From NCBI GenBank assembly GCA_948852945.1, contig CAQPBJ010000004.1:5070-69069 (forward strand): a DNA stretch of 64,000 nt. Reading direction: 5' to 3'. The stretch's first letter is position 1. The number at the start of each line of letters is the position of its first letter. Shown here one piece after another: positions 26,666 to 50,214 of this stretch. The position numbers were made by a program, and so were the translations under genes. The notes under the pieces were generated by a model. The model worked only from the letters and a program-made list of their open reading frames with translations. It did no database searches and was not told where the DNA came from. This stretch comes from an uncultured Clostridia bacterium. GTDB taxonomy: Bacteria; Bacillota; Clostridia; TANB77; CAG-508.

Positions 26666-26692
26666 AATACTTTTTTGAATAAATTTTGTAAT

Positions 26693-26721
26693 TTGACATA
26701 TTATAGAAATTAAGCTATAAT
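26693..26721 (+). promoter_or_regulatory. Consensus sigma-A promoter with no downstream protein gene
   Basis: TTGACA (26693-26698), exactly 17 nt, then TATAAT (26716-26721). Confidence 0.65.
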
Positions 26722-26727
26722 GTATTT

Positions 26728-26796
26728 AGCTTAAGCAAATCAAAGGAACTCAAATGATTTGCACCGAGATTATGTGTCCGCATAATCTCTTTTTTA
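26728..26796 (+). ncRNA. Candidate small RNA of about 70 nt
   Basis: It lies between the consensus promoter and a terminator (GAGATTATG-TGTCCG-CATAATCTC plus T6, 26766-26796). An internal hairpin reads GCAAATCA-AAGGAACTCAAA-TGATTTGC. The next + strand gene is 16 kb away. Confidence 0.4.
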
Positions 26797-26825
26797 TTTT
26801 ACAATTACTTTTTATAAAAAATAAT

Positions 26826-26855
26826 GACGGAGAATTTTATTATTCTCCGTCTTTT
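26826..26855. terminator. Bidirectional terminator that serves the giant gene on the minus strand
   Basis: GACGGAGAAT / ATTCTCCGTC stem. It is followed by TTTTATTTT on the + strand and ATTATTTTTT on the minus strand. Confidence 0.75.
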
Positions 26856-26928
26856 ATTTTAGCTTTATTAATGAAGTTAAAACTTCGTTTTAACAAATGA
26901 TACTGTAACAAGCATAGCTTTAACAGTA

Positions 26929-32900: not shown

Positions 32901-35900
32901 TAGTAAATTTATCTTCTCCAAAAGATGTACTTGCATTTTTATAATATCCTAGATGTAAATAATAAACTTTTCCACCATCTAATACAGTATTGTAATCTTT
33001 TGCTTTTTGTGTTCCTGATATGTAGATAAATCTTCCTGTTGATGAATTATACGCCGGTCTTGTTGTATTTTCTGTTACAGTCGCATATCCCATGTCATAA
33101 CCACTTTGACTTTCAATCTCTGCATTTACTGTTAAATTATATTTTCCTACGTATCCAGTTAAGTCTATTGGTATATATGAATTTGCTGTTCTATTATCTT
33201 GTCCTTGGTTATTTGACTCATATTTGCCTTCATTTTCTACAAAATTATATGTAAATTGTTTATCTTTATATAAGCTAACACCATTTATTGAAACATTAGT
33301 TGGTGTTCCTGAACTATGTGTATATCCTAAATGTAAATAATATTGCTTTCCTCCATCTACATATGTTACATAGTCTTTAGCTGTAGATGTACTTGTTATA
33401 TACATAAATCTTCCTGTACTTGTACTATATGTTGGAGCTATTACGCTTTCATTTAAAGTTGCATATAAATATCCGCTTCCGCCTGTATAATTTGTTTCAG
33501 CATTAACAACTATTGCATATCTACCTTCTTTATCAGTTAAATCTATTGGTATATATGAATTTGCTGTTGTATTTACTTCACTTAAATTATTTGGTATGTA
33601 TTTTCCCTCTGACTCTACAAAATTATAACTTGTAGTAGTTGTAGCATATACATTAATACTATTTATCACTATTTGGTCATCACCTGTATCCGTGCTTGCA
33701 CTTTTTCTATAACCTAAATGTAAGTAGTATATTTTTCCTCCATCTAGTACCTTTGATGTATAATTGCTAGATGCTTGTGTTCCTGATATATAAATAAATC
33801 TTCCTGTACTTGTACTATAACTTGGTGCTGTTGTTGTTTCTGTTATAGTTGCGTATCCATAATCATTACTACTTTGACTTATTACTTCTGCATTTATAGT
33901 AACTATGTATTTACCTTCTTTACCGGTTAAATCTATTGGTATATATGAGTTTGCTGTTGTACTGTGCTTTCCTGATGTTCCACCATTAGCTACTTGATAT
34001 GTTTTACTATTAGTTGGTACATATTTTCCGTCTTGCTTAATAAAGTAATATGTTCCATTGTTAGTTAATTCTCCTAAACTATCTGTTATGTCATTTGATT
34101 TATCCGCTATAACAGTTTCTTTTCCATTTGATGTTAATATTCCATCTATTGTTTCTTGATTTTCAGTATCAACTGTATCATATATCTGTCCATTAGCTGT
34201 TAGGTCTCCTATAACATTTTCTGGATTTGCTCTTTCTTCTAACTGATCTAATTTAAATTTAGCACCAGTTAATTTTTCTTTAGTAATACTATCTATTTTA
34301 TTAATAGTAATTTTATTTTCTTTATAACTATATGTAACTTCTATATGCTTGTCTTCAGTAATATTCTCAAACTGTGGCATATTATAGCTTCCATCTTCAT
34401 TTATTTCAAATGGATATTCTTCACCATTTATAGTAATACCAATAATTTCATAATTTTCATCAGGCGTCATAACGATTTCTTTTGTACCATTATCACCATA
34501 TTTTACTTTTTCGTACGGTGTCCAATCTTCACCTGAAATATTTCCTCCCTTAATGTTATCAATTTCATTAACATCAGTAGTAATCTTAAATTCTTTTCTA
34601 GTATTTTCAACCACTAATTCTTCAATATCAGGAATTCCCATCTCTTCAGCTATTTTAATAATCATTACGTCAGAACTTCCCTTCTTATTTAAGACTAATC
34701 CATTTTCTAAATCAATTGTACTACTATTAAACCAACCTCCTACTACATAGCTTCCATCTCTTGTTTCTATTACTGAATTTATATAATCAGAGCTACCTTT
34801 ACCACCTATTGCTTTTGCCCATTCTGTTTCTCCTTTACTACTATACTTTATTATCATCCCATCAGAGTAATAAGAAGTATCATTATTGTTTAAAATTATT
34901 TCATTTCCTAAGTCTATACTATTAGATTCAAAATAACCTCCAACAACATAACCTCCATCACTTGTCGTTGTTACTGCTTCTACATAATCGTTACTATTTT
35001 CCCCTATTGCTTTCGCCCATTCTATACTTCCTTCTGTATCATACTTTATTATCATTCCTTCAGAAGCTTTATTAGTAGAATTTTTATTTTTTAATACTAC
35101 CCCATTTTCTAAATTTACTTCAATACTACGAAAATTTCCTCCTGCTATTATTCCTCCATCTCTGTTTTCTGCTACTGATGTTATTTTATCATATCCACTA
35201 CCACCTATTGCTTTTCCCCATTCTACCTTTCCATCTGTTGTGTACTTTATTATTATCCCGTCACCATCACCCTTACTATTTAATATGACTCCTCTTCCTA
35301 AATCGATTGTACTATCAAAATCTCCTCCTACTATTATTCCTCCATCTCTTGTTTCTGTTACTACTTTTATATGGTCATTATTACTTCCACCTATTCCTTT
35401 TGCCCACTCTACTTCTCCTTCAGAATTGTATTTAATTATCATTCCGTCACAATGACCTTTATTATTTAATACTATTCCTTTTCCTAAATTAATATTATTT
35501 GAATAAAACCATCCTCCTACTATTATTCCTCCATCTCTCGTTTCTTTTAGTGACTCTATCACATCTTGCTTATTTCCACCTATTTCTTTTGCCCATTCTA
35601 CTTCTCCACTGCTATCTAACTTGATTATTACTCCGTCATCTTTACCATTACTATTTAGTACTACTTCATTTCCTAAATCTATTGTACTATCTCTAAACCA
35701 GCCTCCTATTATATATCCTCCATCTCTTGTTTCTATTACTGAATATATTTTTATGTTTATCACTTTAGTCCATTCTACGTTTCCATTTTTCTCATATTTG
35801 ATTATTCTTTGACAAGATAAATCGTTATTCAATACTTCTCCATTTCCTAAATCAATACTTGAGCCTCCAAAATATCCTGCTATCATATATCCTCCATCTT

Positions 35901-38900
35901 TTGTTGCAACTACTGACTCTATATTGTCTGACTCACTTCCTCCTATTCCTTTTGCTTGTTTTATTACTACTTCTGGAACTTGTACTTCATTGAATTTGAT
36001 TATCATTCCATCAGCATGTCGACCTTTTTTACTTAATACTACTTGACTTTCTAAATCGATACTATTTGAATTAAATAATCCTCCTACTATTATTCCTCCA
36101 TCCATTGTTTCTACTACTGCCTTTATCTCTTCACTTTCTGAACCACCAACTCCTTTTGCCCATTCAGTTTTACCCTCTTCATTATATTTTATTATTACTC
36201 CATCTCTATATCCCTTATTCTGCAATATTATATCATTTCCTAAATCTACTGTAGGTCTACTAAACTGTCCTACTGCTATGTAACCTTTATCTTTTGTTTC
36301 AATAACCTTATTTATTCTATCTTCAGTTGATTGTCCTGTTATCCCTTTTGCCCATTCTACTATCCCATTGTTATTATACTTTATTATCATTCCACTACAA
36401 GTTGTCTCAGAATTTAATATTATACCATTTCCTAAATCTAATGTTTTACTACTAAAATATCCTCCTACTATATAATCTCCGTCACTTGTTTCTGCTACTG
36501 AATACACAAATTCATTACTACTGCCATTTATTGCTTTTGCCCATTCTACTTCTCCTTCAGAACTGTACTTAATTATCATTCCATCTCTATAATTTCCATA
36601 ATTCTTTAATGTCACTCCATTTTCAAAGTCTATTATTTCGGAAGAAAATGATCCTCCTACAATGCACCCCCCGTCTGCTGTTTCTGATATTGACTCTATT
36701 CCATCTTGATCACTCCCACCTATTTCTTTTGCCCATTCTACTTTGCCTTCTGATGTATATTTTATTATCATTCCATCATAAGTTCCTTTATTATTTAGTA
36801 CAACTCCATCTCCTAAATCTACGCTTTTTGAATTAAAAGTTCCTCCTACTATATATCCTCCATCTGACATTGCTATTACTGAATTTATTTTATCATCACT
36901 ACTTCCTCCAATTACTTTTGCACATTCTACTTCTCCTTTAGAACTATACTTGATTATCATTCCATCATAATTACCTTTTGAGTTATTCTTTAACACTACT
37001 CCATTTTCTAAGTCTATTTTTTCGCTATAAAAAATTCCTCCTGCTATATAACTTCCATCGTTAGTTTCTATTACTGAATTTATATGTTCACCAGTATTTC
37101 CACTTATTGCTTTTGCCCATTCTACATTTTTTTCCGCATCATATTTGATTACTATTCCATCAGAACTATAAAGCTTATTATTTTTACTAGTTACTACTAT
37201 GCCATTTCCTAAATCTATACTATTTGATTCAATCCATCCTCCTGCTATTATTCCACCATCACTTGTTTCAGTTACTGAGTAAATATAGTCTCTACCACCA
37301 CTACCACCTATTCCTTTCGCCCATTCTGCTTCTATTTTTGTCTTTCCTTCTCTTGATGCTCCTATTCCAAAGTAGTATTCTGATTTATTTATATCATATT
37401 TATTGGGTGCTTCTACTTCTACTGCTTTATATAGTCCTTCTTGTAGATCTGCTGTTATTTCTCCATTTGCATCTGTTGATACTGTGTAATATCCTCTTCC
37501 ATTTATTGTTTCTTTTGTTCCTATTATTTCACCTTTACTGTTTCTAGCTGGCACTTCACCATTGTCTACATTGTAGATTGCAAATTTTACATTAGCTAAT
37601 AATTCTCCTGTTTCTGCGTCTTTCTTGATTAGCTTAAATGATGGGTTGTCTTCTACTGTTACTATTACTTTGTTTCCTTCTACTGTATATTGCTTTGCTG
37701 TTTGTCCTTCTACTAATTCTTCCACAAATTGTAATGTTCCATCTTTTGCTTCTACTTTAAAGTTTATATCTTTTACTTTTGCATATCCTTCTGGTGCTAA
37801 TACTTCTTTTAATACATATTGTGCCTTTTCTTGTTCTGCTTTTTCTTCTACATATTGATATAAATTAGGTATTGTTATTTTTCCATTTTCATCTGTTATA
37901 AATTCTCCTAATTCTTTTGTTCCTTTATATAGCTTAAATTTTGCTCCTGCTAAATATACCGTTTCTTCTGTGTTATCTGATGTTTCTTCTTCTGTTTCTG
38001 TCATGTTTACGTTTGTTTTCTTTTGTATTTTTACTAACTCTAAGTTATAAGTTGGTATTTTTTCATCTTCTAGTGTCATATTTACTGTTGGTATACTATC
38101 TTCTTCTATAATTAGGCTTTCTTTTACTGTTCCTTCTATGATTTCTATTGTATATGTTCCGTCTGTATTTACAACTTTAAATTTTATTTGGCTTGCTAAA
38201 TAATACCCGTCAGCTTTTACTTCTTCTAACGTGTATTCTTCGTTTATTTTTAGTCCTTTTAAGTTTATTTCTCCGTTTATATTTGTTGTTACTGTTTTTC
38301 CGTTTTCTGGGAAGCCATATCCTGTTAGCTTGTATCTAACTCTTGATACTCTTACATCTGTTCCTTGTTCTACTTTTGTTATTTTTAAGTTTGCTTTTGC
38401 TTCGTCTTCTACGTTTACTATTAATTTATAGTTTTCGCCTTCATTTTTTGTAACTGTTATTTCGTCTTTTGTTGTTCCTGATATTTTTTCTACTGTTAGT
38501 TCTCCTGTTGTTTTATTTACATGACTAATAAACCTGATAGTATCCCCATTTAATTCATACTCATCTGGTGATTTTATTTCTTTTATTTCATATGTTCTTT
38601 CTGCGTAAAGGTTTGTTAGTCTTAATATTCCTTCTAGGTTTGTTACTCCAGTTTTAGCTTCTCCTGCTATTTCTAGTCTTTCTTCATTTGTTGTTATTTC
38701 TCTGAAGCTATAAGTTGCTCCTGGTACTATTTTCTCTTTTCCTATTTGGTATTTATTTAATTCTAAGTCATATTTTTCTGCTATTCTAAATCCTAATTTA
38801 TTTGGTTCTGTTTGAGTTTTATATTTTCCGTTTTCTGTATCTAAGCTAAAATATACTCCATGGTGACTATATGCTACTTGGTTAAATTCAACTCCATTTG

Positions 38901-41685: not shown

Positions 41686-41985
41686 CTCTAAGTAACTCCT
41701 TTAAAACAAATACTAATATTTAAATAATCTTAGTTTTTATTTTAAATACTTATTAGGCTCTGTCAATGCCAGTTTTTTCAGTTATTTGATTTTAATTTGT
41801 AGGAAATTTTCTCTTTGTTTGCTATAACCCTTATAAACACTTCAAAAGCTACGTACCACTTATTTCCAATTAAAAATAAGTAAAAACTTAATATCCTTTA
41901 CTTTACAAATTTCAATTTTTTCTAGGGAAATCAAGAAATTCTTTAATTTTATTTACTATTTTAGCTTTAAAATTTTTTCATTATA

Positions 41986-42139
41986 AAAGAACAATAGTGG
42001 GCTGATAAAAATTTGCTAAACTTTAATAAGCAACGTTCAGCCCACGTTTAATTGTTCGTCCGCGAAAATTCTGAAAGAATTTTCTGTGGAATGTATTTAT
42101 ATTATAGGAAGTTCGGAGAACTTTCCTATAATATAAAAA
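41986..42139 (+). repeat. 154-bp direct repeat, copy A (three-hairpin element)
   Basis: Base-for-base identical to 48544-48697. Hairpin 1 is GAACAATAGTGGGCTGA..TCAGCCCACGTTTAATTGTTC. Hairpin 2 is GAAAATTCT-GAA-AGAATTTTC. Hairpin 3 is TATATTATAGGAAGTTC-GGA-GAACTTTCCTATAATATA. Confidence 0.95.
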
Positions 42140-42159
42140 AAGCAGGTTTATAAACCTGC
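42135..42159 (-). terminator. Terminator of the small peptide gene
   Basis: GCAGGTTTA/TAAACCTGC stem. On the minus strand it is followed by T7. Confidence 0.7.
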
Positions 42160-42179
42160 CTTAGTATATGTTTTATAAA

Positions 42180-42284
42180 TTATATCAACATTTCTTTATC
42201 AACTTTACCTGCGAAAATGCTTGGTAAATGTTCCATATCATAATTATTATTCATTTGTGCAAAATCGTAATTTTCAAAATCCAT
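42180..42284 (-). CDS. Small acidic 34-aa peptide
   Basis: RBS AAAGGAGATAGAAAAT precedes ATG 42284. The product is MDFENYDFAQMNNNYDMEHLPSIFAGKVDKEMLI. It sits between two terminators, so it is a separate transcription unit. Confidence 0.45.
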   Translation of the reverse strand: MDFENYDFAQMNNNYDMEHLPSIFAGKVDKEMLI

Positions 42285-42400
42285 ATTTTCTATCTCCTTT
42301 TGTTTAGTTTTTCCAACGACATATTTATTATACCACTTTTTTGTTTTTATGTAAATCTTTGTTAACAATTTTTTACTATTTTGTAATTTTTTTCTTAAAT

Positions 42401-42441
42401 AAAAAACGGGACACCGGAGAACAAATTTCGTTCTCCGGTGT
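42401..42441 (-). terminator. GC-rich terminator
   Basis: ACACCGGAGAAC / GTTCTCCGGTGT 12-bp stem. On the minus strand it is followed by CCCGTTTTTT. Confidence 0.85.
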
Positions 42442-42470
42442 TTAATCATTGCATACTTAGATTCGGTGGC

Positions 42471-42833
42471 TCAGGAGTCACCTTCCTCTTTTTTCTGCAT
42501 CTCCGCCATGGTTATTCTTTCTCCATTCTTGCACACGATGTACACTTTTGCCGGATGATCGCTCATATATTTTAACATTTCGTCAATAAATATATCAGTT
42601 TTTCCGGCCAGTGCCACCCTGTTTAAGAAATTGTCGTATGCCGACGCGGAGCAGTATAATGTGATGTTGTTGACTGTAAGTGTTTGCCTTAATCTGTTGT
42701 AGGCCTCTTTTTCATGCTCCATGAACATGCCATAATAGTATTCCTGCATCAGTTTCACTTCTTCATCTTCGCAACACATTACATGACGTGTTTCTTCTTT
42801 TGGCTTCCGCCATTTTTTGAAAATATCTAACAT
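42471..42833 (-). CDS. Hypothetical protein (higher-GC islet)
   Basis: 120 aa with no recognisable motif. I counted 27/60 G+C at 42481-42540, against 13/60 at 43801-43860. Confidence 0.6.
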   Translation of the reverse strand: MLDIFKKWRKPKEETRHVMCCEDEEVKLMQEYYYGMFMEHEKEAYNRLRQTLTVNNITLYCSASAYDNFLNRVALAGKTDIFIDEMLKYMSDHPAKVYIVCKNGERITMAEMQKKEEGDS

Positions 42834-42983
42834 GATTTTCTCCCTTCGTGCTAATGTTGTTATGTAACCTATTGTTTATTATACTCTAATTCTCGCTTTT
42901 TGTAAACTTTTGTACTTTCTAATCTAAAATAATTTCTTGACTTTTCCTTATATAGGTATTATAATTTTATCGTTATCTAAATC

Positions 42984-43059
42984 GGGCCATTAGCTCAGCT
43001 GGTAGAGCAGCAGACTCTTAATCTGAAGGTCCGGGGTTCGATCCCCCGATGGCTCACCA
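42984..43059 (+). tRNA. tRNA-Lys (anticodon CUU)
   Basis: Sequence GGGCCATTAGCTCAGCTGGTAGAGCAGCAGACTCTTAATCTGAAGGTCCGGGGTTCGATCCCCCGATGGCTCACCA. It folds as a cloverleaf with anticodon loop CT-CTT-AA and an encoded CCA end. Confidence 0.93.
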
Positions 43060-43081
43060 AAACGTTCCAAAAACCAAATGA

Positions 43082-43112
43082 AAACTCACTGATTTTACAA
43101 GTGAGTTTTTTT
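43082..43112 (+). terminator. Terminator after tRNA-Lys
   Basis: AAACTCAC / GTGAGTTT stem followed by a T run. Confidence 0.65.
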
Positions 43113-43166
43113 CATTGTACAAATATAGAATAATTTCACATTTTATTATAGAAAGAGGTGATATTT

Positions 43167-43439
43167 ATGGCTCAAACATTAGTTAATTTTAGAATAGATG
43201 AATCAACAAAAAAACAAATGGAACAAATATGTAGTGAATTAGGAATAACAATGTCTACTGCATTTAATATATTTGCTAAAAAAGTAATTCGTGAAAAGAG
43301 AATACCTTTTGATGTTTCTATTGACCCATTTTACTCTGAAAGTAATATGAAAGCATTATCAAAATCAATAAAAGAATTAGAACAAGGCAAAGTAGTTGTA
43401 AAATCAATGGCAGAATTAGAGGCGATGGCAGATGAATAA
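43167..43439 (+). CDS. relB: RelB/DinJ-family type II antitoxin
   Basis: RBS AGAGGTG. The product is MAQTLVNFRIDESTKKQMEQICSELGITMSTAFNIFAKKVIREKRIPFDVS..., which has a ribbon-helix-helix N-terminus. Confidence 0.8.
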   Translation: MAQTLVNFRIDESTKKQMEQICSELGITMSTAFNIFAKKVIREKRIPFDVSIDPFYSESNMKALSKSIKELEQGKVVVKSMAELEAMADE

Positions 43440-43440
43440 T

Positions 43441-43579
43441 TTATCATTTACAAAAGCCTTTAAAAGAAAATTTAAGTGGCTATTGGAGTAGAAGAATTGA
43501 TGAAGCTAATAGATTAGTTTATAGAATAGTAAATAGTCAAATAGAAATAGTACAATGTAAAGGGCATTATAACAACTAA
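43441..43579 (+). pseudogene. 5'-truncated YoeB/Txe-family toxin remnant
   Basis: Only the C-terminal part survives: ..LKENLSGYWSRRIDEANRLVYRIVNSQIEIVQCKGHYNN*. The ATG that overlaps the antitoxin stop is in another frame and terminates after 19 codons. Confidence 0.65.
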
Positions 43580-43814
43580 TAAGTTTAGTAGTAATTCTGA
43601 GCAAATAATAAAAGCACCACATTACGCTTCGCCAAGCTATGTGGTGTTTGTCATATTTATATGGTAGCACACATTTCTGTGGCTCTCATTTTCTATTTAT
43701 ATTATACAAAGATAATAAGACTTTGTCAAAAATGCTTTATTCTAAAATATAATCTTATGCTTGAATATTACTTCTATTATGTATACAATTATAAAAAAAT
43801 ATGGAGTAAAAAAT

Positions 43815-46800
43815 ATGTCTGAAACTAAAGATAATATTAGAAGAATTATAAGTAATAACGAATTTTTAGATTATAAAAAAGTTCTTGGTAAAGATAACCT
43901 AGAAACTGTAGAATTTACTTTAGTATTATTAAAACAATATTATGGTTTTTCCACTACAGAAATCAGCTCGATTTATGACTATTCCGAAGAAGATTTTGTT
44001 TCTGAACTTAATGAGTCTAATATTGATTTTTTCCAATTATCAGAAGAACAATTCTTTTCTAAGCTATCTGATAATAAAAAAGAAATTTTTAAACAATTAG
44101 CTCATAATATTGTTTCACGTGTAAAACCAGAAAAATTAAAAGAACTTATTTCTTCTGATGAATTACTATCTGTTGATATAGATTCGTTTAATAACTATTT
44201 AGATGAACTCGAAAAAGAAAAACAAGAAATATTTAAAATATTGAGTACTAGTGATTTAAGTCAAATTTTACCTAAGAGTTTTTTCGATTGTGATTTTTTA
44301 GATAAAATTAATTTAGAAAATTCTGGTGCTCGTTTGGATATGGAAAATTTCAACTATGATGCCAGAGTTTCTGGTTCATTAAAAGGTTGCGAATTACTTT
44401 CTTTTTCTATAAATCACTATATTGATCCTGATGCGTCGGAACTTTTATCTATGTGGTCTCATATTAGTGCTGATTGTTTAGATGAAAGTCAATATATAGC
44501 TGTAGCTCAATATTATCTTTTACATGGTTTGATTTTATCTGAAAAAGAACATTTTTTATTTCAAGCTCCTAATATTCAAGATGAGCTTCAATTATTATAT
44601 GAAAAAGTCTTAAAAGACAATAAGTATTCAGCATATGGATATCTAAATTTATATAATTGTATGACTCCTGAAGCACAAGCTAAAAATAGCGCATATATTG
44701 ATAGAATAATTACTTTAGCTAAAAATAGTGATGATAAATATTCTATTGAAAAGTCTATACAATATATGAGTCTTTCTCAATTTGATAAATATTTTCCTGA
44801 CATTTTAAAATTATATACTAATGCTGATGGAACAATGAATTTAGACAATTTTATTTCAATGGTTTGGGGTTATTGTAATTCAGAAGTTCAACTTAATTAC
44901 TTTGAGAAATTTAAAGATATTATTAATCAAACAGCTACTAACAATAATAAGGATTTTTATGTTTATAGGCTATTAGAATCTTCTAGTGAAGAAGCTCAAA
45001 AAGTCTTTTTGCAAAATCTTTTGGAAGAAAGTCGTACTAATGGTGGAGCTTTAAGTTTAAGTAAAGTTGATGATATTTTGTCTCATACTTCAAAAAATGT
45101 AGATATTTCTGATGATTATTTTGAAGAAATTTTAAGCTTAGTTAATCCCGAAAAATATTCTTCAGTTGTTAAATTTTATAATGTATGGCAGAATATTGGT
45201 TTACATGCTCAACAAAAATATTTGCCTACAATGCTTAACCATCTTGAAATTTTTAATTTTGTTGAGTTGTGGAATCGAACTGATTTGGAAGCTCAAAAAA
45301 ATTTATATAATGAATTAATTCCTATTATAGAAAAAGACTATCCTTCTTTAGAACATCAATTTAAAGGCGATATTTATATTTCTCTTTTAAAAAATATGCC
45401 TGAAAAAGATGCTTCTGAATGGATACATAATGATGTACCTAAATTTATTGATGCTTTTAGAAAAAAATATAATGATAATGAAAAAGATTTTATAGATTAT
45501 AGCAAGTATACTGATTTTGAATTAGCTAATATTCTTTTACAATTAGAAAATAGTGGTGATTTAAATGATTCTAATATTAATTCTATTTTAAATAATTTGC
45601 CTACTTTGGGTAAACAAATTATTTATAGAGTTATTAATTGTAATTCTAAAATGATTCAAAATGAAGCTTCAAAAATTTTATCAAAACTGGCACAAAATCC
45701 TAAAAATGCTGGTCAGCTTTTGACTGAAATTGAAAATATTTTTGCCCAAAGAAATTTACCTGATTTTGTGAAATTTTATAAGTATTTTGAGCTTTTACAA
45801 TATGATGATAAAATAAATTTTTCATCTTCCTATCTTTCTCCTGCTTTAGCTAATACTCAGAGTAAAACTTTAAGTAAAAGAATTATTTTTTCAGATTTAA
45901 TGCGAATATCTATGGATTCAAATAATAAATCGATGAAAAATTTTGTGGATACTTTAGAACGCGGTAATGCTTTATATGTAAAAGTAATGAACAATCAACT
46001 TGATGTTCAAGATTTTTCTAATGAAGATAGGTTTTTAGCACAAGAATATACTAAAACTTTATATTTTTTATATGAATTATCAGATGCTAGTGTAGTAGAT
46101 AAAAAAGATGGTAGAAAGCTTTCGTTAACTGGTGATATAAAACAGGATTTTGAGTCTTTAGGTAGAAGATATTCACATGATGGCCTTATTAAAAATTTAC
46201 CTGACCAAATTTTAAGAAGTATTATTGGTCCATATCAAGAACTCTTTGAAGGCATTGATTCCGTAGAAAAAATCAAAGAATATATGCATCAAAAAATTGA
46301 AACTTCGAATAAAAGACATTTTGAACTTGCTGATAGTAAAATTGATTTGAAACCTGGTGATTTAGTTAAAGGTATTAAAGATAGCTCTAGAGTTTCCCCT
46401 TCTCTTGTATCAGATGGTATAAGGGCTGGTGAATTTTTAGGTGTTGACAGTCATTCTGACCTTACTCCTTTGGATACTGATTTTAGCGCAATATTACCTG
46501 GAAATGAGGGTCAAGGATTTATTGGTAAGCTTAATAATACTATGTCTGCTAGCTATGGAGATATGTTTTTTGTAGTAAAATATAATCCAACTAAAATGGA
46601 GTATTCTAGACAAAATGATGATTTAAATGTTCTGTCTCAAGAAATAAAAATGAGTGATAAAATATCGTCAAGAAATGAACCTGATACTATTATAAAAAGG
46701 ATTAATGATAGGTCTAGAAATGAATATGATGCTAAAAAATTAGAAATATTTTCTAGCAAATTTTCTGGTGAACACTATGGTATTAGAACAGGTGTAGGTA

Positions 46801-48080
46801 TTACTGATATTGATTATATTGTTTTGACAAGTGGCTATAATAAACGTTTAGGTTTTGAATTAGCTATGAATGGAACTTATATTCCTGTTTTTGATGCTAA
46901 ATCTGAAGAATTGTTATTTTCTCCTGAAGATTATGAATCAATTAGAAGTCAAATGCAAGGTTTATCTTTTTATGATGCTGGTAATTTTGTGGTTGATGAG
47001 TCAGCTAAAACTGCTCAAGCAAAAGAAATTGTAGATGAATTATTTTCTACTGGTGATGTTGACGAATCTATTAGTGAAAAAGAGGCTAAGTCTAAAAGAA
47101 GTGCTATACAATATCAAGTTGTAAAAGCTTTGTCTGAAAATATGGGAATAGGTCTTGAAAATCATGTTACTGGTAATATGACTGAAGGATTTGTTGAATT
47201 TATAGATACCGGTTCTACTGGCCGTGGTACTAATGTTCCTGGTAGCGGTGATTTTGATTTCATGATGAAAGTTGATAAAAATATTATAGATAATCCTTCT
47301 AGAATGGAAGAATTTAAAACTCATTTAAGAAAAGTATTAGCTATTCCTTCAAATGACCCAGAAACTTCTACAGAAGAATTAGGCGGAAACTTTAGATATA
47401 AAAAGGTCTCTATTGAAGGTATAGCAGAACCTGTAGATATTGACGTTACTTTTGCTCCTAAAAATGAAGAAATTACTTATTCAACTGATATGTGTGTTAA
47501 AGATAGATTAAATCATCTTAAAACTTCAGACCCTGAGGGGTATAAGTATACAGTTGCGAATATAGTTCTTGCTAAAAGATTACTTAAAAAAGAAGGTTTG
47601 TATAAGAAACATAACAGTGATGGTGCAACGCAATATGGCGGTTTTGGTGGTGTTGGCGTAGAAAATTGGATTCTTCAAAATGGCGGTTCTTTAATAACTG
47701 CTATGGATAGCTTTTTAGAAGCTTCAGCAAAAACTAAAGAATTTGATGAATTTAAGGAACTTTATCCAATTTTTGATTTTGGTGAAAATCATGCTTCAAA
47801 AGGTTCTTATCCTCATGATACTTTCATAAATGGCTTGACTCAAGAAGGATATTTGCAGATGAAAACTAGATTTAGAGAATTGAAAAACGAATTAACGTCT
47901 ATTGAAGTAGTTTCAGATAAAACTCGTTTAGCTGAAACTATTATAGAAGACACAGAAAACTTGGCTAAAGATGCTAGAAAAGGTTCTGTTTTGGCTACAA
48001 TGTCTGAACTTACAAATTTATATAATGAAATTGAAAATCCATCGATTACTAATAAAGAGGTTAATGATTATGACAAATGA
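43815..48080 (+). CDS. Large (1421 aa) protein with helical repeats and a C-terminal Pol-beta-superfamily nucleotidyltransferase-like domain
   Basis: GGAG lies 9 nt before ATG 43815. NTase signature GSTGRGTNVPGSGDFDFMMKV is at 47211-47270. Downstream, KKHNSDGATQYGGFGGVGVENWILQNGGS resembles the neck of class I CCA/poly(A)-type enzymes. The N-terminal half has recurring W/L-x(5-7)-EAQ helical units at 44640-45330. Confidence 0.75.
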   Translation: MSETKDNIRRIISNNEFLDYKKVLGKDNLETVEFTLVLLKQYYGFSTTEISSIYDYSEEDFVSELNESNIDFFQLSEEQFFSKLSDNKKEIFKQLAHNIVSRVKPEKLKELISSDELLSVDIDSFNNYLDELEKEKQEIFKILSTSDLSQILPKSFFDCDFLDKINLENSGARLDMENFNYDARVSGSLKGCELLSFSINHYIDPDASELLSMWSHISADCLDESQYIAVAQYYLLHGLILSEKEHFLFQAPNIQDELQLLYEKVLKDNKYSAYGYLNLYNCMTPEAQAKNSAYIDRIITLAKNSDDKYSIEKSIQYMSLSQFDKYFPDILKLYTNADGTMNLDNFISMVWGYCNSEVQLNYFEKFKDIINQTATNNNKDFYVYRLLESSSEEAQKVFLQNLLEESRTNGGALSLSKVDDILSHTSKNVDISDDYFEEILSLVNPEKYSSVVKFYNVWQNIGLHAQQKYLPTMLNHLEIFNFVELWNRTDLEAQKNLYNELIPIIEKDYPSLEHQFKGDIYISLLKNMPEKDASEWIHNDVPKFIDAFRKKYNDNEKDFIDYSKYTDFELANILLQLENSGDLNDSNINSILNNLPTLGKQIIYRVINCNSKMIQNEASKILSKLAQNPKNAGQLLTEIENIFAQRNLPDFVKFYKYFELLQYDDKINFSSSYLSPALANTQSKTLSKRIIFSDLMRISMDSNNKSMKNFVDTLERGNALYVKVMNNQLDVQDFSNEDRFLAQEYTKTLYFLYELSDASVVDKKDGRKLSLTGDIKQDFESLGRRYSHDGLIKNLPDQILRSIIGPYQELFEGIDSVEKIKEYMHQKIETSNKRHFELADSKIDLKPGDLVKGIKDSSRVSPSLVSDGIRAGEFLGVDSHSDLTPLDTDFSAILPGNEGQGFIGKLNNTMSASYGDMFFVVKYNPTKMEYSRQNDDLNVLSQEIKMSDKISSRNEPDTIIKRINDRSRNEYDAKKLEIFSSKFSGEHYGIRTGVGITDIDYIVLTSGYNKRLGFELAMNGTYIPVFDAKSEELLFSPEDYESIRSQMQGLSFYDAGNFVVDESAKTAQAKEIVDELFSTGDVDESISEKEAKSKRSAIQYQVVKALSENMGIGLENHVTGNMTEGFVEFIDTGSTGRGTNVPGSGDFDFMMKVDKNIIDNPSRMEEFKTHLRKVLAIPSNDPETSTEELGGNFRYKKVSIEGIAEPVDIDVTFAPKNEEITYSTDMCVKDRLNHLKTSDPEGYKYTVANIVLAKRLLKKEGLYKKHNSDGATQYGGFGGVGVENWILQNGGSLITAMDSFLEASAKTKEFDEFKELYPIFDFGENHASKGSYPHDTFINGLTQEGYLQMKTRFRELKNELTSIEVVSDKTRLAETIIEDTENLAKDARKGSVLATMSELTNLYNEIENPSITNKEVNDYDK

Positions 48081-48516
48081 AATGGCTTTTGCAATAGCTG
48101 AAATTAACGAAATATTAAACTATTTATCTATCCAGCAAGTGAATAAAATCCCTTTAAAATTAAGGAATATGTTCACTTTAGTTTCACATGCCAATTATAT
48201 TCCTCATATTGATCCTAATAAAAGCATATTAGAGCAGGATATTAGTACAAAAACTAAGGATATTTTAGTATTATTTTATAGAAATTATTGGTCTGATAGT
48301 GATAATAAAAATGAGATTGATAAGATTTTAGACGAAAATGAGAATAGATACCAACTTGAACTTAGTCAAAAGTATAGTACCTATAATATTTTTAATTCTT
48401 CTAATAGCGCTATGACTCTTCCAGAGAATGATGTTCAGGATAATAAACTTATTGTTAAGAAGGATAACTTTATTACCAAGATTATAAATAAATTAAAATC
48501 TTGGTTTAGTCATTAA
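48070..48516 (+). CDS. Small protein (about 148 aa) translationally coupled to the large NTase-domain gene
   Basis: GAGG is followed by ATGATTATG (starts at 48064, 48070 or 48082). These overlap the upstream TGA at 48078-48080. I recognise no motif in the product. Confidence 0.6.
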   Translation: MTNEMAFAIAEINEILNYLSIQQVNKIPLKLRNMFTLVSHANYIPHIDPNKSILEQDISTKTKDILVLFYRNYWSDSDNKNEIDKILDENENRYQLELSQKYSTYNIFNSSNSAMTLPENDVQDNKLIVKKDNFITKIINKLKSWFSH

Positions 48517-48543
48517 AATTGTTTATTATAATGCTATTTTAAC

Positions 48544-48697
48544 AAAGAACAATAGTGGGCTGATAAAAATTTGCTAAACTTTAATAAGCAACGTTCAGCC
48601 CACGTTTAATTGTTCGTCCGCGAAAATTCTGAAAGAATTTTCTGTGGAATGTATTTATATTATAGGAAGTTCGGAGAACTTTCCTATAATATAAAAA
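48544..48697 (+). repeat. 154-bp direct repeat, copy B
   Basis: Identical to 41986-42139. It lies between the stop of the small ORF and its terminator. Confidence 0.95.
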
Positions 48698-48699
48698 TA

Positions 48700-48729
48700 G
48701 ACGTTCTATTTAAGAACGTCTTCTTTTTT
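48700..48729 (+). terminator. Terminator of the + strand two-gene unit
   Basis: GACGTTCT / AGAACGTC stem followed by TTCTTTTTT. It overlaps the last codons of the convergent gene. Confidence 0.6.
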
Positions 48730-50214
48730 GTTTATTTTAAAGTTTGATATATGTATTGATGTTATTGGTATTAATGCTATTATATATGGAATTATATATC
48801 TTGATTTTGCTTCCCATAAGATATGAAATGCAAATCCTCCTATAAAAATTGTTAATAAAAATATTACTTCTAATGAAAGTTTTTTTCTATTTTGTATTAT
48901 GATTATTAAACTGCTGGATGTTATTAATAAAAGTGTTACTTTTTGATAAAATGTTACTGGATTTTCAGCATTTTTTAATATTTTATTTTCTCCGATGTTA
49001 TTATTCCAAAATGCTGAATATGTATTTTCTCCCCACATTGATGCTAGCTTTTTAGTGTAAAAATCTGCTGTGTATTTTATATTTTTTGATAAATATTTTA
49101 CTCTTTCTTTTATCTTTTCTTTATATTCATTTTCTATATTTTCTTTTTGGTGTAGTGCTGGTTCGGCTATAGGTTCGTTGTACCATCCGTTTCCTCTCCA
49201 TGATTCTTCCATTGCCATTAAAATAAAACTTGCTTTTGGATATCCTTTATTTTTATCTAAATTATATTTTTGAAAATAATAGTTTTCTACTAAATTCGCT
49301 GGAACGAATGAGATTATTAAATATATTGCTATTATTATTAAGTTTATCGCACTTTTCTTCCATTCTGTTTTATTAAATTCTTTTATTAAATTTAATATTA
49401 AATATACTACTGTTGCTATTATAAATATTAAACTATTCATTCGCATCATATATGCAAAAGCTGTTAGTATTGCTGCTATTACTATGTGTTTTATTTTTTT
49501 GCTTTGTGTATATTTCATTATATAATATACTGCAAATAGTGATAGCCCTAAGCTTGGAATGTCTCCATATATAAATGTTGTTAGCATTAATAATGGTGCA
49601 CATGTTAATATTAATATTATTGGTAAGGTTGTACTTGTTTTGTATTGTTTAGATAGTTGATTACATATCTTGTATATTGCAAAAATAATGGCTAAATTTC
49701 CAATTATATTTACTACTCTTAGTATTGCTATTACATCAAAATATGTCATTTTAAAGGCTAATTTATATACATATGCTAAGTGTATTTGTTGAGGATATTT
49801 TTCTATATATTCTTTTAGTGTTATTCCTGCATACGTTTTATTGTTTAGAAATTCATTATCGTCTCCTCTATAAAAGGTTTGTGCTAGGTTTGCTACATGT
49901 ATTGAGTCACCGCCTATTCCTGGTCTTACTAAAATTATCCATAATATACTTAATATAATGTATATTACTAATGCTGCTATAAATATATTTTTTCTAATCT
50001 TTTTTTCTTTTTCGCTTTTTTCTAACTTTTTGTCTAATTTTCTTGTTATAAAATATATTAATATCCCTACTAATATAATTGAAATTATGTAAAATATATT
50101 ATTATAATTTATTATTACATGTTCTGATAAGTCTAGTTTGGCTGTAAATATTAAGTTTATTCCTGTTACAATTAATAGTGAAATTATTCCTATTATATAT
50201 ATGATTTTTTTCAT
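48706..50214 (-). CDS. Polytopic membrane protein, probably a GT-C-fold glycosyltransferase (GT39/ArnT-like)
   Basis: 502 aa with about 11 hydrophobic segments. The first external loop carries acidic motifs (GGDSIHV, RGDDNEF). The call rests on overall resemblance only. Confidence 0.45.
   Translation of the reverse strand: MKKIIYIIGIISLLIVTGINLIFTAKLDLSEHVIINYNNIFYIISIILVGILIYFITRKLDKKLEKSEKEKKIRKNIFIAALVIYIILSILWIILVRPGIGGDSIHVANLAQTFYRGDDNEFLNNKTYAGITLKEYIEKYPQQIHLAYVYKLAFKMTYFDVIAILRVVNIIGNLAIIFAIYKICNQLSKQYKTSTTLPIILILTCAPLLMLTTFIYGDIPSLGLSLFAVYYIMKYTQSKKIKHIVIAAILTAFAYMMRMNSLIFIIATVVYLILNLIKEFNKTEWKKSAINLIIIAIYLIISFVPANLVENYYFQKYNLDKNKGYPKASFILMAMEESWRGNGWYNEPIAEPALHQKENIENEYKEKIKERVKYLSKNIKYTADFYTKKLASMWGENTYSAFWNNNIGENKILKNAENPVTFYQKVTLLLITSSSLIIIIQNRKKLSLEVIFLLTIFIGGFAFHILWEAKSRYIIPYIIALIPITSIHISNFKINKKEDVLK

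What the first reader, a model, noticed from the sequence alone, without database searches (positions are those of the whole stretch)
41986..48697. Perfect 154-bp direct repeats bracket a 6.4-kb cassette that has no recombinase
Positions 41986-42139 and 48544-48697 are identical at every base. Between them lie a 34-aa peptide gene, a higher-GC hypothetical gene, tRNA-Lys(CUU), relB plus a yoeB remnant, and the NTase two-gene module. No integrase or transposase is present.

The repeat unit is not simple sequence. It folds on paper into three strong hairpins:
- a 17-19 bp interrupted stem that encloses a smaller TTGCT/AGCAA hairpin
- a 9-bp stem
- a 17-bp stem with one bulged U

None of these hairpins is followed by a U run, so they are not ordinary terminators. 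Copy A sits about 300 nt upstream of the giant adhesin gene. Copy B lies in the 3' UTR of the NTase operon.

Possible explanations are att-like scars of an integrated element, a dispersed structured element or ncRNA, or a substrate for RecA-mediated loss or amplification of the cassette.
Basis: seen in the sequence. Interest (0 to 1): 0.65.

Follow-up and report, generated by a model that had tools for sequence, protein, structure and literature searches.

The report
Mobile hairpin repeat landing behind terminators
The two identical 154-base repeats are not the ends of a gene cassette; they are two of at least ten copies of a small, three-hairpin mobile DNA element that uncultured gut Clostridia carry directly behind transcription terminators, and the enzyme that moves it is unknown.

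Summary
Window 41986-42139 and 48544-48697 are identical at all 154 bases and fold into three strong hairpins.

The cassette reading does not hold:
- The same unit occurs 10 times at 98-100% identity on 9 contigs of this 1.6-Mb assembly, plus fragments.
- Modular relatives occur in 16 of 40 related genomes.
- The hairpin-3 motif scan found 118 or more stretches, all listed ones in uncultured gut Clostridia assemblies.

Every copy has the same setting: gene, locus-specific terminator hairpin, T-run, then the element in one fixed orientation.

Other strains of this species give exact empty and filled alleles at copy A. The insert is 145 nt (41989-42133), placed at T(n)A^T, with no terminal inverted repeats and no target duplication. 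Four contigs carry copy B and the NTase island but lack copy A, so the two copies arrived independently.

All three hairpins show compensatory base changes. Head-to-tail tandem copies exist.

I found no partner enzyme. Y1, Y2 and IS110 transposases and reverse transcriptase do not track the element.

Best reading: a non-autonomous mobile repeat aimed at terminators, probably moved in trans through single-stranded DNA. It is a new variant of small dispersed repeats such as BOX, REP and IS200-derived elements.

The parts
41989..42133 (+). Element copy A, 145 nt (+/-1): GAACAATAG...CCTATAATA. Hairpin modules are A (41989-42057), B (42059-42090) and C (42096-42137, whose outermost pairs use flank bases).
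   Evidence: The boundaries come from exact empty and filled alleles in other strains, from the sharp edges of the 10-copy alignment and from tandem junctions. Copy A is polymorphic among strains.
42134..42162 (-). Target of copy A: the intrinsic terminator of the 34-aa ORF (hairpin 42142-42159/42162) with its T-run. On the - strand it reads hairpin-TTTTTTTA, then the element.
   Evidence: The terminator scan finds it on the - strand, with a tail that runs into the element. The same hairpin sits in the empty alleles and in G004 without the element.
48547..48691 (+). Element copy B, identical to copy A. It lies between the stop of the 148/181-aa gene and the terminator of the PMT_2 glycosyltransferase gene.
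   Evidence: It is present in all 10 public contigs that carry the 148-aa gene.
48692..48721 (-). Target of copy B: the bidirectional terminator hairpin (48699-48721) of the converging PMT_2 gene (48706-50214, - strand) with its T-run.
   Evidence: The terminator scan finds it on both strands.
43063..48546 (.). Strain-variable island next to the 3' end of tRNA-Lys(CTT): relB, yoeB remnant, 1439-aa NTase-like gene and 148/181-aa gene. It is not part of the repeat element. It is listed because it is the real variable segment inside the supposed cassette.
   Evidence: It is absent from G004, where tRNA-Lys is followed directly by the PMT_2 terminator. Some strains carry other cargo there, for example DUF4314 in L116. 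Others have a 166-nt relB deletion.
42134..43062 (.). Conserved backbone inside the supposed cassette: 34-aa ORF, 120-aa ORF and tRNA-Lys(CTT).
   Evidence: It is 85% identical and syntenic in G004.

Best explanation
**What it is.** The 154-bp repeat is a 145-nt non-coding, non-autonomous mobile DNA element. CCTATAATA-3'. It is built from three hairpin modules, A, B and C. It belongs to a modular repeat family of uncultured low-GC gut Clostridia.

**Shown here**
- It is dispersed and nearly identical across the genome.
- It sits in one fixed orientation immediately after the T-run of an intrinsic terminator. Read in the sense of the terminated gene, the order is gene, hairpin, T(5-8)A, then TATTATAGG...CTATTGTTC, then T.
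- It inserts precisely, with no terminal inverted repeats and no target duplication.
- It is present or absent among strains of one species, so it has moved recently.
- It also occurs as head-to-tail tandems with the same exact junction.
- Its three hairpins are kept by compensatory substitutions.

**Inferred mechanism.** A trans-acting enzyme recognises the folded terminal hairpins on one DNA strand. It pastes the element into single-stranded DNA exposed at a folded terminator plus T-run, most plausibly on the lagging-strand template. This would be an IS200/IS605-like 'peel and paste' route or a related strand-specific one. I put about 0.3-0.35 on that route specifically, because no matching enzyme was found. 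I put about 0.85 on the element being mobile DNA aimed at terminators.

**The two window copies.** Copies A and B are independent insertions behind two different terminators. They do not delimit a cassette.
For: - **Copy number.** There are 10 full copies at 98-100% identity on 9 contigs, plus truncated, deleted and diverged pieces. The repeat is 7-10 times deeper than its flanks in four DNA runs.
- **Setting.** In 10 of 10 copies the gene on the element's 3' side converges on it, and a different, locus-specific hairpin lies between.
- **Flank hairpins.** In 55-nt 3' flanks, 10 of 10 copies in this genome fold at -9.3 kcal/mol or better and 8 of 10 at -12 or better. In G014 and G023, 26 of 31 non-tandem copies fold at -11.8 or better. 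Only 8.3% of 2000 random intergenic 55-mers reach -12.
- **Exact alleles at copy A.** The filled form is CCTGC-TTTTTTTA-[145 nt]-TTTTATAATG. The empty forms are CCTGC-TCTTTTTTTA-TTTTAGAATG and CCTGC-CTATTTTTA-TTTTAGAATAG. The flanks are otherwise about 99% identical. Contigs of two metatranscriptome runs show the same joint.
- **Empty orthologous sites.** G004 keeps the terminator and A/T-run at the C10 and C32 loci without the element.
- **Independence of A and B.** Copy B is present and copy A absent in L297, L298, L299 and L304.
- **Covariation.** Across 38 distinct copies from four genomes, at least 10 base pairs in the three hairpins show double compensatory changes, for example AU/CG/UA/GC at one pair. 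The bulged T of hairpin C is kept.
- **Tandems.** Six head-to-tail junctions read CCTATAATA|GAACAA, which fits repeated insertion at the same T(n)A^T point.
- **Distribution.** 16 of 40 relatives match, with A+B+C, B+C and C-only forms and at least three variants of the inner hairpin of module A. The C-module pattern hits 118 or more stretches. All 80 listed are in uncultured gut Clostridia assemblies from mouse, human, rabbit and goat.
Against: - **No mobilising enzyme found.** Y1_Tnp is absent from this 74%-complete assembly and does not track element load in 24 relatives. The one IS200-type copy in G014 has unrelated end hairpins.
- **Other enzyme classes do not track it either.** IS110-type DEDD transposase occurs only in G002, which lacks the element. 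Y2 transposase clears its cut-off in 3 of 25 genomes, full-length only in G022, and is absent from this genome, G014 and G023. Reverse transcriptase is absent from this genome, from complete G014 and from G023, the three genomes with many full-length copies.
- **No autonomous copy found.** There is no IS-sized repeat in this assembly and no long A...cargo...C composite in 80 loci. Nothing matches in phage, plasmid or IMG/VR collections.
- **Geometry differs from IS608-type ends.** The hairpins reach the very termini, and the two end hairpins are unlike each other.
- **Part of the terminator association could be selection** against insertions elsewhere, not targeting.
- **Only one locus gives a strain-level exact empty site.** The cross-species empty sites are blurred by divergence, with 16-26 extra nt beside the element at two loci.
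- **RNA could not be judged.** The metatranscriptome contigs do not show whether the element is transcribed.
Confidence: 0.8

Rival explanations
1. The two copies are att-like scars or cassette ends. On this reading a 6.4-kb element carrying the peptide gene, tRNA-Lys, relB/yoeB and the NTase pair integrated as one unit and is bracketed by its duplicated attachment site.
For: - The two copies are perfect direct repeats 6558 bp apart.
- The interior holds a toxin-antitoxin remnant and a defence-like NTase pair, both typical island cargo.
- Part of the interior really is strain-variable.
Against: - Eight more full copies lie elsewhere, none bracketing a comparable unit.
- Four contigs carry the island and copy B but not copy A.
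- The variable segment starts at the tRNA-Lys 3' end (43063), about 930 bp to the right of copy A. The 42134-43062 stretch is conserved backbone in G004.
- No integrase is present.
Confidence: 0.03
2. It is a multi-copy small RNA gene, or a cis-acting RNA structure in 3' or 5' untranslated regions, that the host keeps for a function such as transcript stabilisation, back-up termination or insulation. On this reading the copies spread by duplication or recombination, not by transposition.
For: - The folds are very stable and the stems covary.
- Copy B lies between a stop codon and a bidirectional terminator, so it should be transcribed as a 3' UTR.
- Contigs of RNA libraries contain the element.
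Against: - No Rfam family matches. The best hit scores 28 bits against a threshold of 47.
- There is no conserved promoter: the sequence upstream of the sharp 5' edge differs at every locus, and no + strand promoter lies inside the unit.
- Most copies lie after the terminator of the gene they follow, so they would rarely be transcribed in that sense.
- Insertions are not conserved between species at orthologous loci and are polymorphic within the species. Copies are 98-100% identical. This is the pattern of recent spread, not of an old conserved gene.
- Covariation is equally expected for hairpins read on single-stranded DNA.
Confidence: 0.1
3. It is a retro-element-like repeat. An RNA copy ending in an A-run anneals to the terminator T-run and is reverse-transcribed into the chromosome, either by SINE-like target-primed reverse transcription or by a class C group II intron machinery acting in trans.
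For: - The junction is always an A/T-run of variable length, 5-8 nt.
- There is no target duplication and no inverted repeat.
- Class C group II introns are known to insert after intrinsic terminators by reading structure more than sequence (PMC7306698).
Against: - No RVT_1 reverse transcriptase occurs in this genome, in complete G014 (32 matches to the element) or in G023 (31 matches).
- No group II intron RNA domains are detected.
- The empty alleles already hold the T-run, so the run belongs to the target and is not a tail of the element.
Confidence: 0.04
4. The duplication is an assembly artefact: a repeat collapsed or mis-joined in a metagenome-assembled genome.
For: - The repeat is longer than common assembly k-mers.
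- Contigs in public runs break at it.
- One JGI contig joins the left flank of the C10 copy to the right flank of copy A.
Against: - Flank contigs enter the repeat from both sides in four DNA runs.
- Empty alleles in other strains join the same two flanks of copy A directly, so that neighbourhood is real.
- Ten independent assemblies show the same layout at copy B.
Confidence: 0.01

Closest known systems
Non-autonomous derivatives of IS200/IS605 elements (palindrome-associated transposable elements), moved by Y1 HUH transposase TnpA through single-stranded DNA
   Same: - It has no terminal inverted repeats and no target duplication.
- Both ends are imperfect hairpins, one with a conserved bulged T.
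- Insertion is orientation-specific, next to a short target.
- Head-to-tail junctions are exact.
- The size is 100-200 nt.
   Different: - No cognate Y1 transposase was found, and Y1 presence does not track copy number.
- The end hairpins reach the termini instead of lying subterminally, and they are unlike each other.
- The target is a T-run next to a hairpin, not a fixed tetra- or pentanucleotide.
Bacterial class C (IIC) group II introns
   Same: Both insert just downstream of Rho-independent terminators, in one orientation, reading structure more than sequence (PMC7306698). Both use the same 'hide behind a terminator' strategy.
   Different: - This element is 145 nt with no ribozyme domains and no intron-encoded protein.
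- No reverse transcriptase is present in three element-rich genomes.
BOX, RUP and SPRITE repeats of Streptococcus pneumoniae (PMC3049150)
   Same: - Both are small, AT-rich, strongly folded intergenic repeats.
- BOX is likewise modular (boxA-boxB-boxC), with modules missing or repeated.
- Both are enriched near 3' ends of genes, are clustered or nested, and have an unknown or uncertain mobilising enzyme.
   Different: - BOX and RUP have terminal inverted repeats and make target duplications. This element has neither.
- SPRITE itself looks like a terminator. This element sits beside the host's own terminator in a fixed register.
REP/BIME sequences and REPINs with their RAYT (TnpA-REP) transposases (PMC3116915, PMC3333891)
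   Same: Both are extragenic palindromic repeats found behind genes in many copies per genome, with conserved hairpins, and both are thought to move through single-stranded DNA.
   Different: - REPs are 20-40 nt units with a GTAG or CGTC head and occur as inverted doublets.
- A single-copy RAYT gene flanked by REPs is expected, and none is found here.
IS1272 / TnSha1 of staphylococci (IS1182 family) (PMC4923244)
   Same: Both choose hairpin structures, often terminators, with little primary-sequence specificity and no target duplication.
   Different: - IS1272 is an autonomous DDE element with inverted repeats.
- IS1272 cuts into the stem and deletes part of the hairpin, in either orientation. 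This element leaves the hairpin intact and inserts after the T-run in one orientation.

Membership tests
IS200/IS605-derived non-autonomous element (PATE) | No terminal inverted repeats and no target-site duplication | tested here: met
   The ends are GAACAATAG... and ...CCTATAATA and are not inverted copies of each other. Exact empty and filled alleles show 0-1 nt of ambiguity and no duplication.
IS200/IS605-derived non-autonomous element (PATE) | Imperfect hairpins at both ends that the transposase reads on one strand | tested here: inconclusive
   Hairpins are present at both ends and kept by covariation, with a conserved bulged T. However, they are terminal instead of subterminal and are unlike each other. 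Which strand is read was not resolved.
IS200/IS605-derived non-autonomous element (PATE) | Insertion 3' of a fixed 4-5 nt target that abuts the left end | tested here: inconclusive
   The left junction is T(5-8) followed by A in 8 of 10 copies, G in 1 and nothing in 1. This is a T-run beside a hairpin, not a defined tetranucleotide.
IS200/IS605-derived non-autonomous element (PATE) | A Y1 (TnpA) transposase in the genome whose own element has matching ends | tested here: not met
   There is no PF01797 match in this assembly, which is 74% complete. Y1 presence does not track element load in 24 relatives. The G014 IS200-type copy has CCCCAG...CTGGGG end hairpins unrelated to this element.
REP/REPIN with RAYT | 20-40 nt palindromes with a conserved GTAG or CGTC head, in inverted doublets, plus a RAYT gene flanked by them | tested here: not met
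   The unit is 145 nt with three different hairpins and no such head. No Y1/RAYT gene was found.
Classical MITE (DDE-transposon derivative; BOX, RUP, Correia, bcr1 type) | Terminal inverted repeats and a fixed-length target-site duplication | tested here: not met
   neither feature is present.
Class C group II intron or fragment of one | Group II ribozyme domains and an intron-encoded reverse transcriptase (insertion after terminators is shared) | tested here: not met
   No Rfam group II match at gathering or E-value thresholds. RVT_1 is absent from this genome, G014 and G023. The position after terminators is met.
att sites or direct-repeat scars of an integrated island, or integron-type cassette boundaries | The two repeats bound one unit that is present or absent as a whole, with a recombinase nearby or in trans | tested here: not met
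   Copy A is absent while the island and copy B are present in four contigs. Ten dispersed copies exist. The edge of the variable segment is the tRNA-Lys 3' end, not copy A. No recombinase domain lies in the interval.
Any curated RNA family (Rfam 15) | A score at or above the family's gathering threshold | tested here: not met
   Only tRNAs pass in the window. The best sub-threshold hit on the unit is STnc430 at 28.1 bits against a threshold of 47, aligned mostly over the neighbouring terminator.

The most novel reading that the evidence does not exclude
The element family is moved by an enzyme class not yet linked to transposition, or by a host function, and not by Y1 or Y2 HUH transposases, IS110-type recombinases or reverse transcriptases. 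That machinery would read a generic intrinsic terminator (hairpin plus T-run) as its landing pad and paste a 145-nt hairpin cassette precisely at T(n)A^T. This would be a new transposition system, specific to a clade of uncultured gut Clostridia, that gives small DNA elements the terminator-hiding strategy so far known for class C group II introns.
Probability: 0.2. Interest if true: 0.8.

Novelty: new variant of a known kind. Interest (0 to 1): 0.55.

Why it matters
**For this window.** The apparent recombinase-less cassette dissolves. The repeats say nothing about how the relB/NTase island or the giant adhesin gene arrived. Annotators should not treat them as island borders.

**More generally.**
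- The family is a clean, recently active case of structure-directed targeting of intrinsic terminators by a tiny DNA element. It has exact empty and filled alleles, no inverted repeats, no target duplication and no recognisable transposase.
- If the enzyme can be found, it would add a terminator-seeking, strand-specific insertion system from the gut microbiome. Such an insertion site is nearly harmless to the host.
- The repeats also matter in practice. At about 150 bp and 98-100% identity they break or mis-join short-read assemblies of these genomes.
- They place strong hairpins, and occasionally promoter-like hexamers, next to genes such as the 4918-aa adhesin.

Tried and rejected
**Known RNA**
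- Rfam at gathering and E-value thresholds found no family.

**Candidate enzymes**
- Y1 transposase or RAYT as partner: absent from this genome, uncorrelated in relatives, and the one IS200-type copy has unrelated ends.
- IS110/bridge-RNA type: a real match only in G002, which lacks the element.
- Reverse transcriptase (target-primed or group II in trans): absent from three element-rich genomes.
- IS91-type Y2 transposase: over its cut-off in 3 of 25 genomes, full-length only in G022, and absent from this genome, G014 and G023.

**An autonomous copy**
- Self-BLAST of the assembly for IS-sized repeats found only adhesin paralogues.
- A scan of 80 loci (640 kb) for module A and module C ends separated by cargo gave two candidates, both ordinary genes.
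- Phage, plasmid and IMG/VR collections gave no match.

**Transcription**
- Metatranscriptome runs hold the element. Depth behaves like collapsed multi-copy DNA and the contigs carry no strand, so this is uninformative.

**More evidence of mobility or bias**
- A second polymorphic copy: the C10 locus is filled in the two DNA runs that cover it. Look-ups by exact protein for two flanking genes failed, probably because my start codons differ from the called genes.
- Replication-strand bias: the one complete chromosome reached has a single copy, so this was not testable.

**Ideas dropped**
- A possible 217-aa gene spanning the 120-aa and 34-aa ORFs, as called in one JGI contig. All strains keep the in-frame TGA, so this is a gene-calling difference and not an intact variant.
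- Extra unique bases of 16-26 nt beside the element at two loci, compared with G004, made me consider a variable 'guide' segment. The strain-level alleles at copy A show no such extra bases, so I attribute these to divergence between species.

Full report
**1. The observation**

Window 41986-42139 and 48544-48697 are identical at all 154 positions. The bases on either side differ, so 154 nt is the longest exact match.

- Hairpin 1 (41989-42057) is an interrupted outer stem, GAACAAT/ATTGTTC plus TGGGCTGA/TCAGCCCA, enclosing a TTGCT/AGCAA hairpin.
- Hairpin 2 is at 42059-42090.
- Hairpin 3 is at 42096-42137 and has one bulged T.

Together with the neighbouring terminator the fold energy is -65.9 kcal/mol, against -30.2 +/- 3.8 for shuffles (z = -9.4). 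The opposite strand folds just as well, so folding alone cannot say which strand matters, or whether RNA or DNA does.

- tRNA-Lys(CTT) lies at 42984-43059.
- RelB matches Pfam at 2.3e-16.
- A C-terminal YoeB remnant reads ...LSGYWSRRIDEANRLVYRIVNSQIEIVQCKGHY.
- The 1439-aa protein has a weak match to an oligonucleotide-cyclase-type NTase (PADLOC, E = 0.001).
- No recombinase domain is present.

**2. It is a dispersed repeat, not a pair**

The window's own assembly is 1.64 Mb in 49 contigs, 27.7% G+C and 74% complete. It holds 10 full-length copies at 98-100% identity on 9 contigs. It also holds:
- one copy cut by a contig end;
- a roughly 95-nt internal-deletion derivative that keeps both ends;
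- diverged single modules.

In Logan contigs of four mouse-gut DNA runs, the flank contigs run into the repeat from both sides. The repeat is 7-10 times deeper than its flanks. The copies are therefore real, and the copy number is about right.

**3. Anatomy and setting**

When the ten copies are lined up, similarity starts sharply at (A)GAACAATAG and ends at CCTATAATA followed by T and a run of 5-8 A. The ends are not inverted repeats of each other, and the flanks share no duplicated bases.

Immediately after the A-run, every copy has a different, locus-specific G+C-rich hairpin. In 10 of 10 cases the gene on that side points toward the element. Read in that gene's sense, the order is always gene, terminator hairpin, T-run, element.

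The terminator scan calls these hairpins at both window copies:
- 42162-42139 on the - strand;
- 48699-48721 on both strands.

Fold energies of the 55 nt next to the element:

| Set | Result |
|---|---|
| This genome, 10 copies | all 10 at -9.3 kcal/mol or better; 8 at -12 or better |
| G014 and G023, 31 non-tandem copies | 26 at -11.8 or better |
| 2000 random intergenic 55-mers | 8.3% at -12 or better |

A pooled rank test gave p of about 5e-28. That pool still contained some reverse-strand palindrome hits, so I rely on the cleaned counts in the table.

**4. Mobility: exact empty and filled alleles**

Contigs from other strains were found through the neighbouring 120-aa protein. They give copy A in three allelic states with otherwise about 99% identical flanks, including the adhesin gene's upstream region and start. 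Read in the sense of the peptide gene:

| Allele | Contigs | Sequence |
|---|---|---|
| Filled | window, L110, L112, L118 and L119 (the last two cut by their contig ends inside the element) | ...GGCAGGTTTATAAACCTGC-TTTTTTTA-[TATTATAGG...CTATTGTTC]-TTTTATAATG... |
| Empty 1 | L111, L114 | ...CCTGC-TCTTTTTTTA-TTTTAGAATG... |
| Empty 2 | L113, L115, L116, L117 | ...CCTGC-CTATTTTTA-TTTTAGAATAG... |

The insert is therefore 145 nt (window 41989-42133, give or take one T). It sits at T(n)A^T directly after the terminator's T-run, with no target duplication.

Contigs of two metatranscriptome runs show the same joint, reported as 'skips 144'.

The closest related species, G004 (84-88% identical in the flanks), lacks the element at the orthologous C10 and C32 loci but keeps the terminator and its A/T-run. 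Its peptide-gene terminator resembles empty allele 2. The filled state is thus the derived one.

Copies within this genome differ by 0-3 bases, which points to recent spread.

**5. The cassette idea, tested directly**

Contigs spanning both positions were found through the 148-aa protein.
- Copy B is present in all ten, at 100% identity.
- Copy A is absent from L297, L298, L299 and L304. These contigs nevertheless carry the 34-aa and 120-aa genes (the 120-aa gene is not among the genes called in L304), the 1421-aa and 148-aa genes, and relB where it was called.

A and B are therefore independent insertions.

Synteny with G004 shows what is really variable:
- Window 26666-42133 (the 4918-aa adhesin gene plus copy A) is missing between the ABC-F gene and the peptide gene.
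- Window 43063-48721 (relB through the 148-aa gene, plus copy B and a different terminator) is missing between the 3' end of tRNA-Lys(CTT) and the PMT_2 gene.
- Window 42134-43062, inside the supposed cassette, is conserved backbone.

Other strains carry different cargo next to the tRNA, for example a DUF4314 gene in L116, or a 166-nt deletion in relB. There is a variable island, but it hangs on the tRNA gene. The 154-bp repeats are not its borders.

**6. The family**

The 154-mer matches 16 of 40 relatives: 15 of 21 genomes of the genus and one sister genus. The forms are modular:
- A+B+C in G004, G014 and G023;
- B+C, the commonest form, in G007, G021, G006, G017 and G020;
- C alone in G015 and G021.

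Module A comes in at least three versions. They share the outer stem GAACAA(T/A)...(A/T)TTGTTC but have unrelated inner hairpins.

An alignment of 38 distinct full copies from four genomes gives a consensus structure with the same three hairpins.
- At least ten base pairs show double compensatory changes. Examples are CG/GC, AU/UA and UA/CG in hairpin B, and AU/CG/UA/GC and UA/AU in hairpin C.
- The bulged T of hairpin C is kept.
This is largely due to one nearly invariant G.U, so it is only a weak hint about which strand folds.

Six copies in G014 and G023 are followed directly by another copy, with the junction CCTATAATA|GAACAA. Repeated insertion at the same T(n)A^T point would produce exactly that junction.

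All 80 listed are in uncultured Clostridia, 'Clostridium sp.' or 'Lachnospiraceae' assemblies from mouse, human, rabbit and goat guts.

**7. How it probably works, and what is missing**

The shown features are the hallmarks of strand-specific transposition through single-stranded DNA, as in IS200/IS605:
- no inverted repeats;
- no duplication;
- hairpin ends kept by covariation;
- one orientation relative to an asymmetric target;
- exact head-to-tail junctions.

The terminator-adjacent position is the one used by class C group II introns, which read structure more than sequence (PMC7306698).

My best mechanistic guess is as follows. A trans-acting enzyme reads the folded ends. It pastes the element next to a terminator that has folded on single-stranded DNA, most likely the lagging-strand template. 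I rate this at about 0.3-0.35.

The enzyme is the gap:

| Candidate | Result |
|---|---|
| Y1 transposase | absent from this assembly; does not track element load; G014's IS200-type copy has unrelated ends |
| IS110-type transposase | a real match only in element-free G002 |
| Y2 transposase | over its cut-off in 3 of 25 genomes, full-length only in G022; absent from this genome, G014 and G023 |
| Reverse transcriptase | absent from this genome, complete G014 and G023 |
| IS-sized repeat in this assembly | none |
| Cargo-bearing version of the element | none in 640 kb of related loci |
| Phage, plasmid or IMG/VR copies | none |

Metagenome bins often lose insertion sequences, so absence here is weak evidence. 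The lack of any correlation across 25 genomes is stronger.

Part of the terminator association could also reflect selection against insertions elsewhere.

**8. RNA**

- No Rfam family matches.
- The upstream sequence differs at every locus, and no + strand promoter lies inside the unit. An independent RNA gene is therefore unlikely.
- Copy B should be transcribed passively as part of the 3' end of the NTase operon, because the next terminator is bidirectional.
- Public metatranscriptome contigs contain the element but carry no strand. Their depth pattern looks like multi-copy DNA, so they settle nothing.

**9. Comparison with known systems, and novelty**

| Known system | Shared | Different |
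|---|---|---|
| Pneumococcal BOX (PMC3049150) | modular build | BOX has inverted repeats and target duplications |
| SPRITE (PMC3049150) | lies near 3' ends of genes | SPRITE itself looks like a terminator |
| REP/REPIN (PMC3116915, PMC3333891) | extragenic palindromic repeats behind genes | short, GTAG/CGTC-headed, tied to a RAYT gene |
| IS1272/TnSha1 (PMC4923244) | targets hairpins | cuts into the stem, either orientation, and is an autonomous DDE element |
| IS200/IS605 derivatives | closest in logic | the defining transposase test fails here |
| Class C group II introns (PMC7306698) | same landing site | no ribozyme or reverse transcriptase here |

I therefore file it as a new variant of the known kind 'small dispersed non-autonomous repeats'. 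It is distinguished by precise, oriented insertion behind intrinsic terminators and by an unknown mobilising enzyme.

An earlier agent of this scan reached the same picture for a related family in another genome (e1-1099027). I reached it independently before reading that note. This report adds the strain-level alleles, the test showing that A and B are independent, and the enzyme co-occurrence tests.

**10. Verdict**

Interest is moderate: the thing the finding proposed is not there, but the element itself is a neat, recently active, terminator-seeking mobile repeat with no known enzyme.

Noticed in passing
window 26666-42133: The whole 4918-aa adhesin gene, with its upstream region and copy A, is absent from the closest relative G004. 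There the ABC-F gene (98.8% identical) is followed within about 55 nt by the peptide-gene terminator. The adhesin is a lineage-specific insertion or loss between conserved neighbours.
   Followed up: partly
window 43063-48721: The relB/yoeB-remnant/NTase segment starts right at the 3' end of tRNA-Lys(CTT) and is missing in G004. Other strains carry different genes there (L116: 221-aa, 73-aa and DUF4314 genes) or a 166-nt deletion removing the 5' half of relB (L295, L296). No repeat of the tRNA 3' end and no integrase was seen.
   Followed up: partly
window 41980-42008, - strand: There is a promoter-like site, TTATCA-17 nt-TATAAT. Its -35 hexamer lies inside module A of copy A and its -10 lies in the flank, pointing toward the adhesin gene about 300 nt away. 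Empty alleles read TAGAAT where the filled allele reads TATAAT. The insertion may have created an extra outward promoter. A stronger native-looking promoter (TTGACA-16-TAAAAT) lies at 41766-41739.
   Followed up: no
L303 (JGI metagenome contig), positions 1-2741: This contig joins the left flank of the C10 copy (aldose epimerase, ValRS) to the right flank of copy A through one element copy. It is either a chimeric assembly across the 150-bp repeat or a real recombination between two copies.
   Followed up: partly
G000 contig C12:22614-22664 (L013): A roughly 95-nt derivative keeps both element ends but has lost the inside of hairpin A and most of hairpins B and C. It is still followed by a terminator hairpin. 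This suggests the ends are what matter.
   Followed up: no
G014 loci L134-L139; G023 locus L143: Module A exists in at least three versions. They share the outer stem GAACAA./.TTGTTC but have unrelated inner hairpins: GGGCTGA..., CTGAAAAAATC..., GCGGACATTAATAA.... The element appears to swap or tolerate any inner hairpin.
   Followed up: partly
G000 contig C2:117417-117483 (L003): The C2 copy is preceded directly by a diverged lone C-type module (CATATTATAGAAATTTCC...CTTTCTTATAAT). An older remnant seems to have been pushed away from the terminator by the newer full copy.
   Followed up: no
window 42180-42833, - strand: The 120-aa ORF and the 89/34-aa ORF are in the same frame, separated by one TGA that all strains keep. 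One JGI record calls them as a single 217-aa gene, apparently a gene-calling difference. A 14-bp-stem terminator-like hairpin lies between them (42411-42441).
   Followed up: partly
The genome search PF01548, e.g. G000:C7:30743-31003: Nearly every genome of the clade has a weak (22-29 bit) match to the first 80 positions of the IS110 DEDD domain inside a roughly 1450-aa open frame. It is probably an RNase-H-like fold in a housekeeping protein and not a transposase.
   Followed up: no
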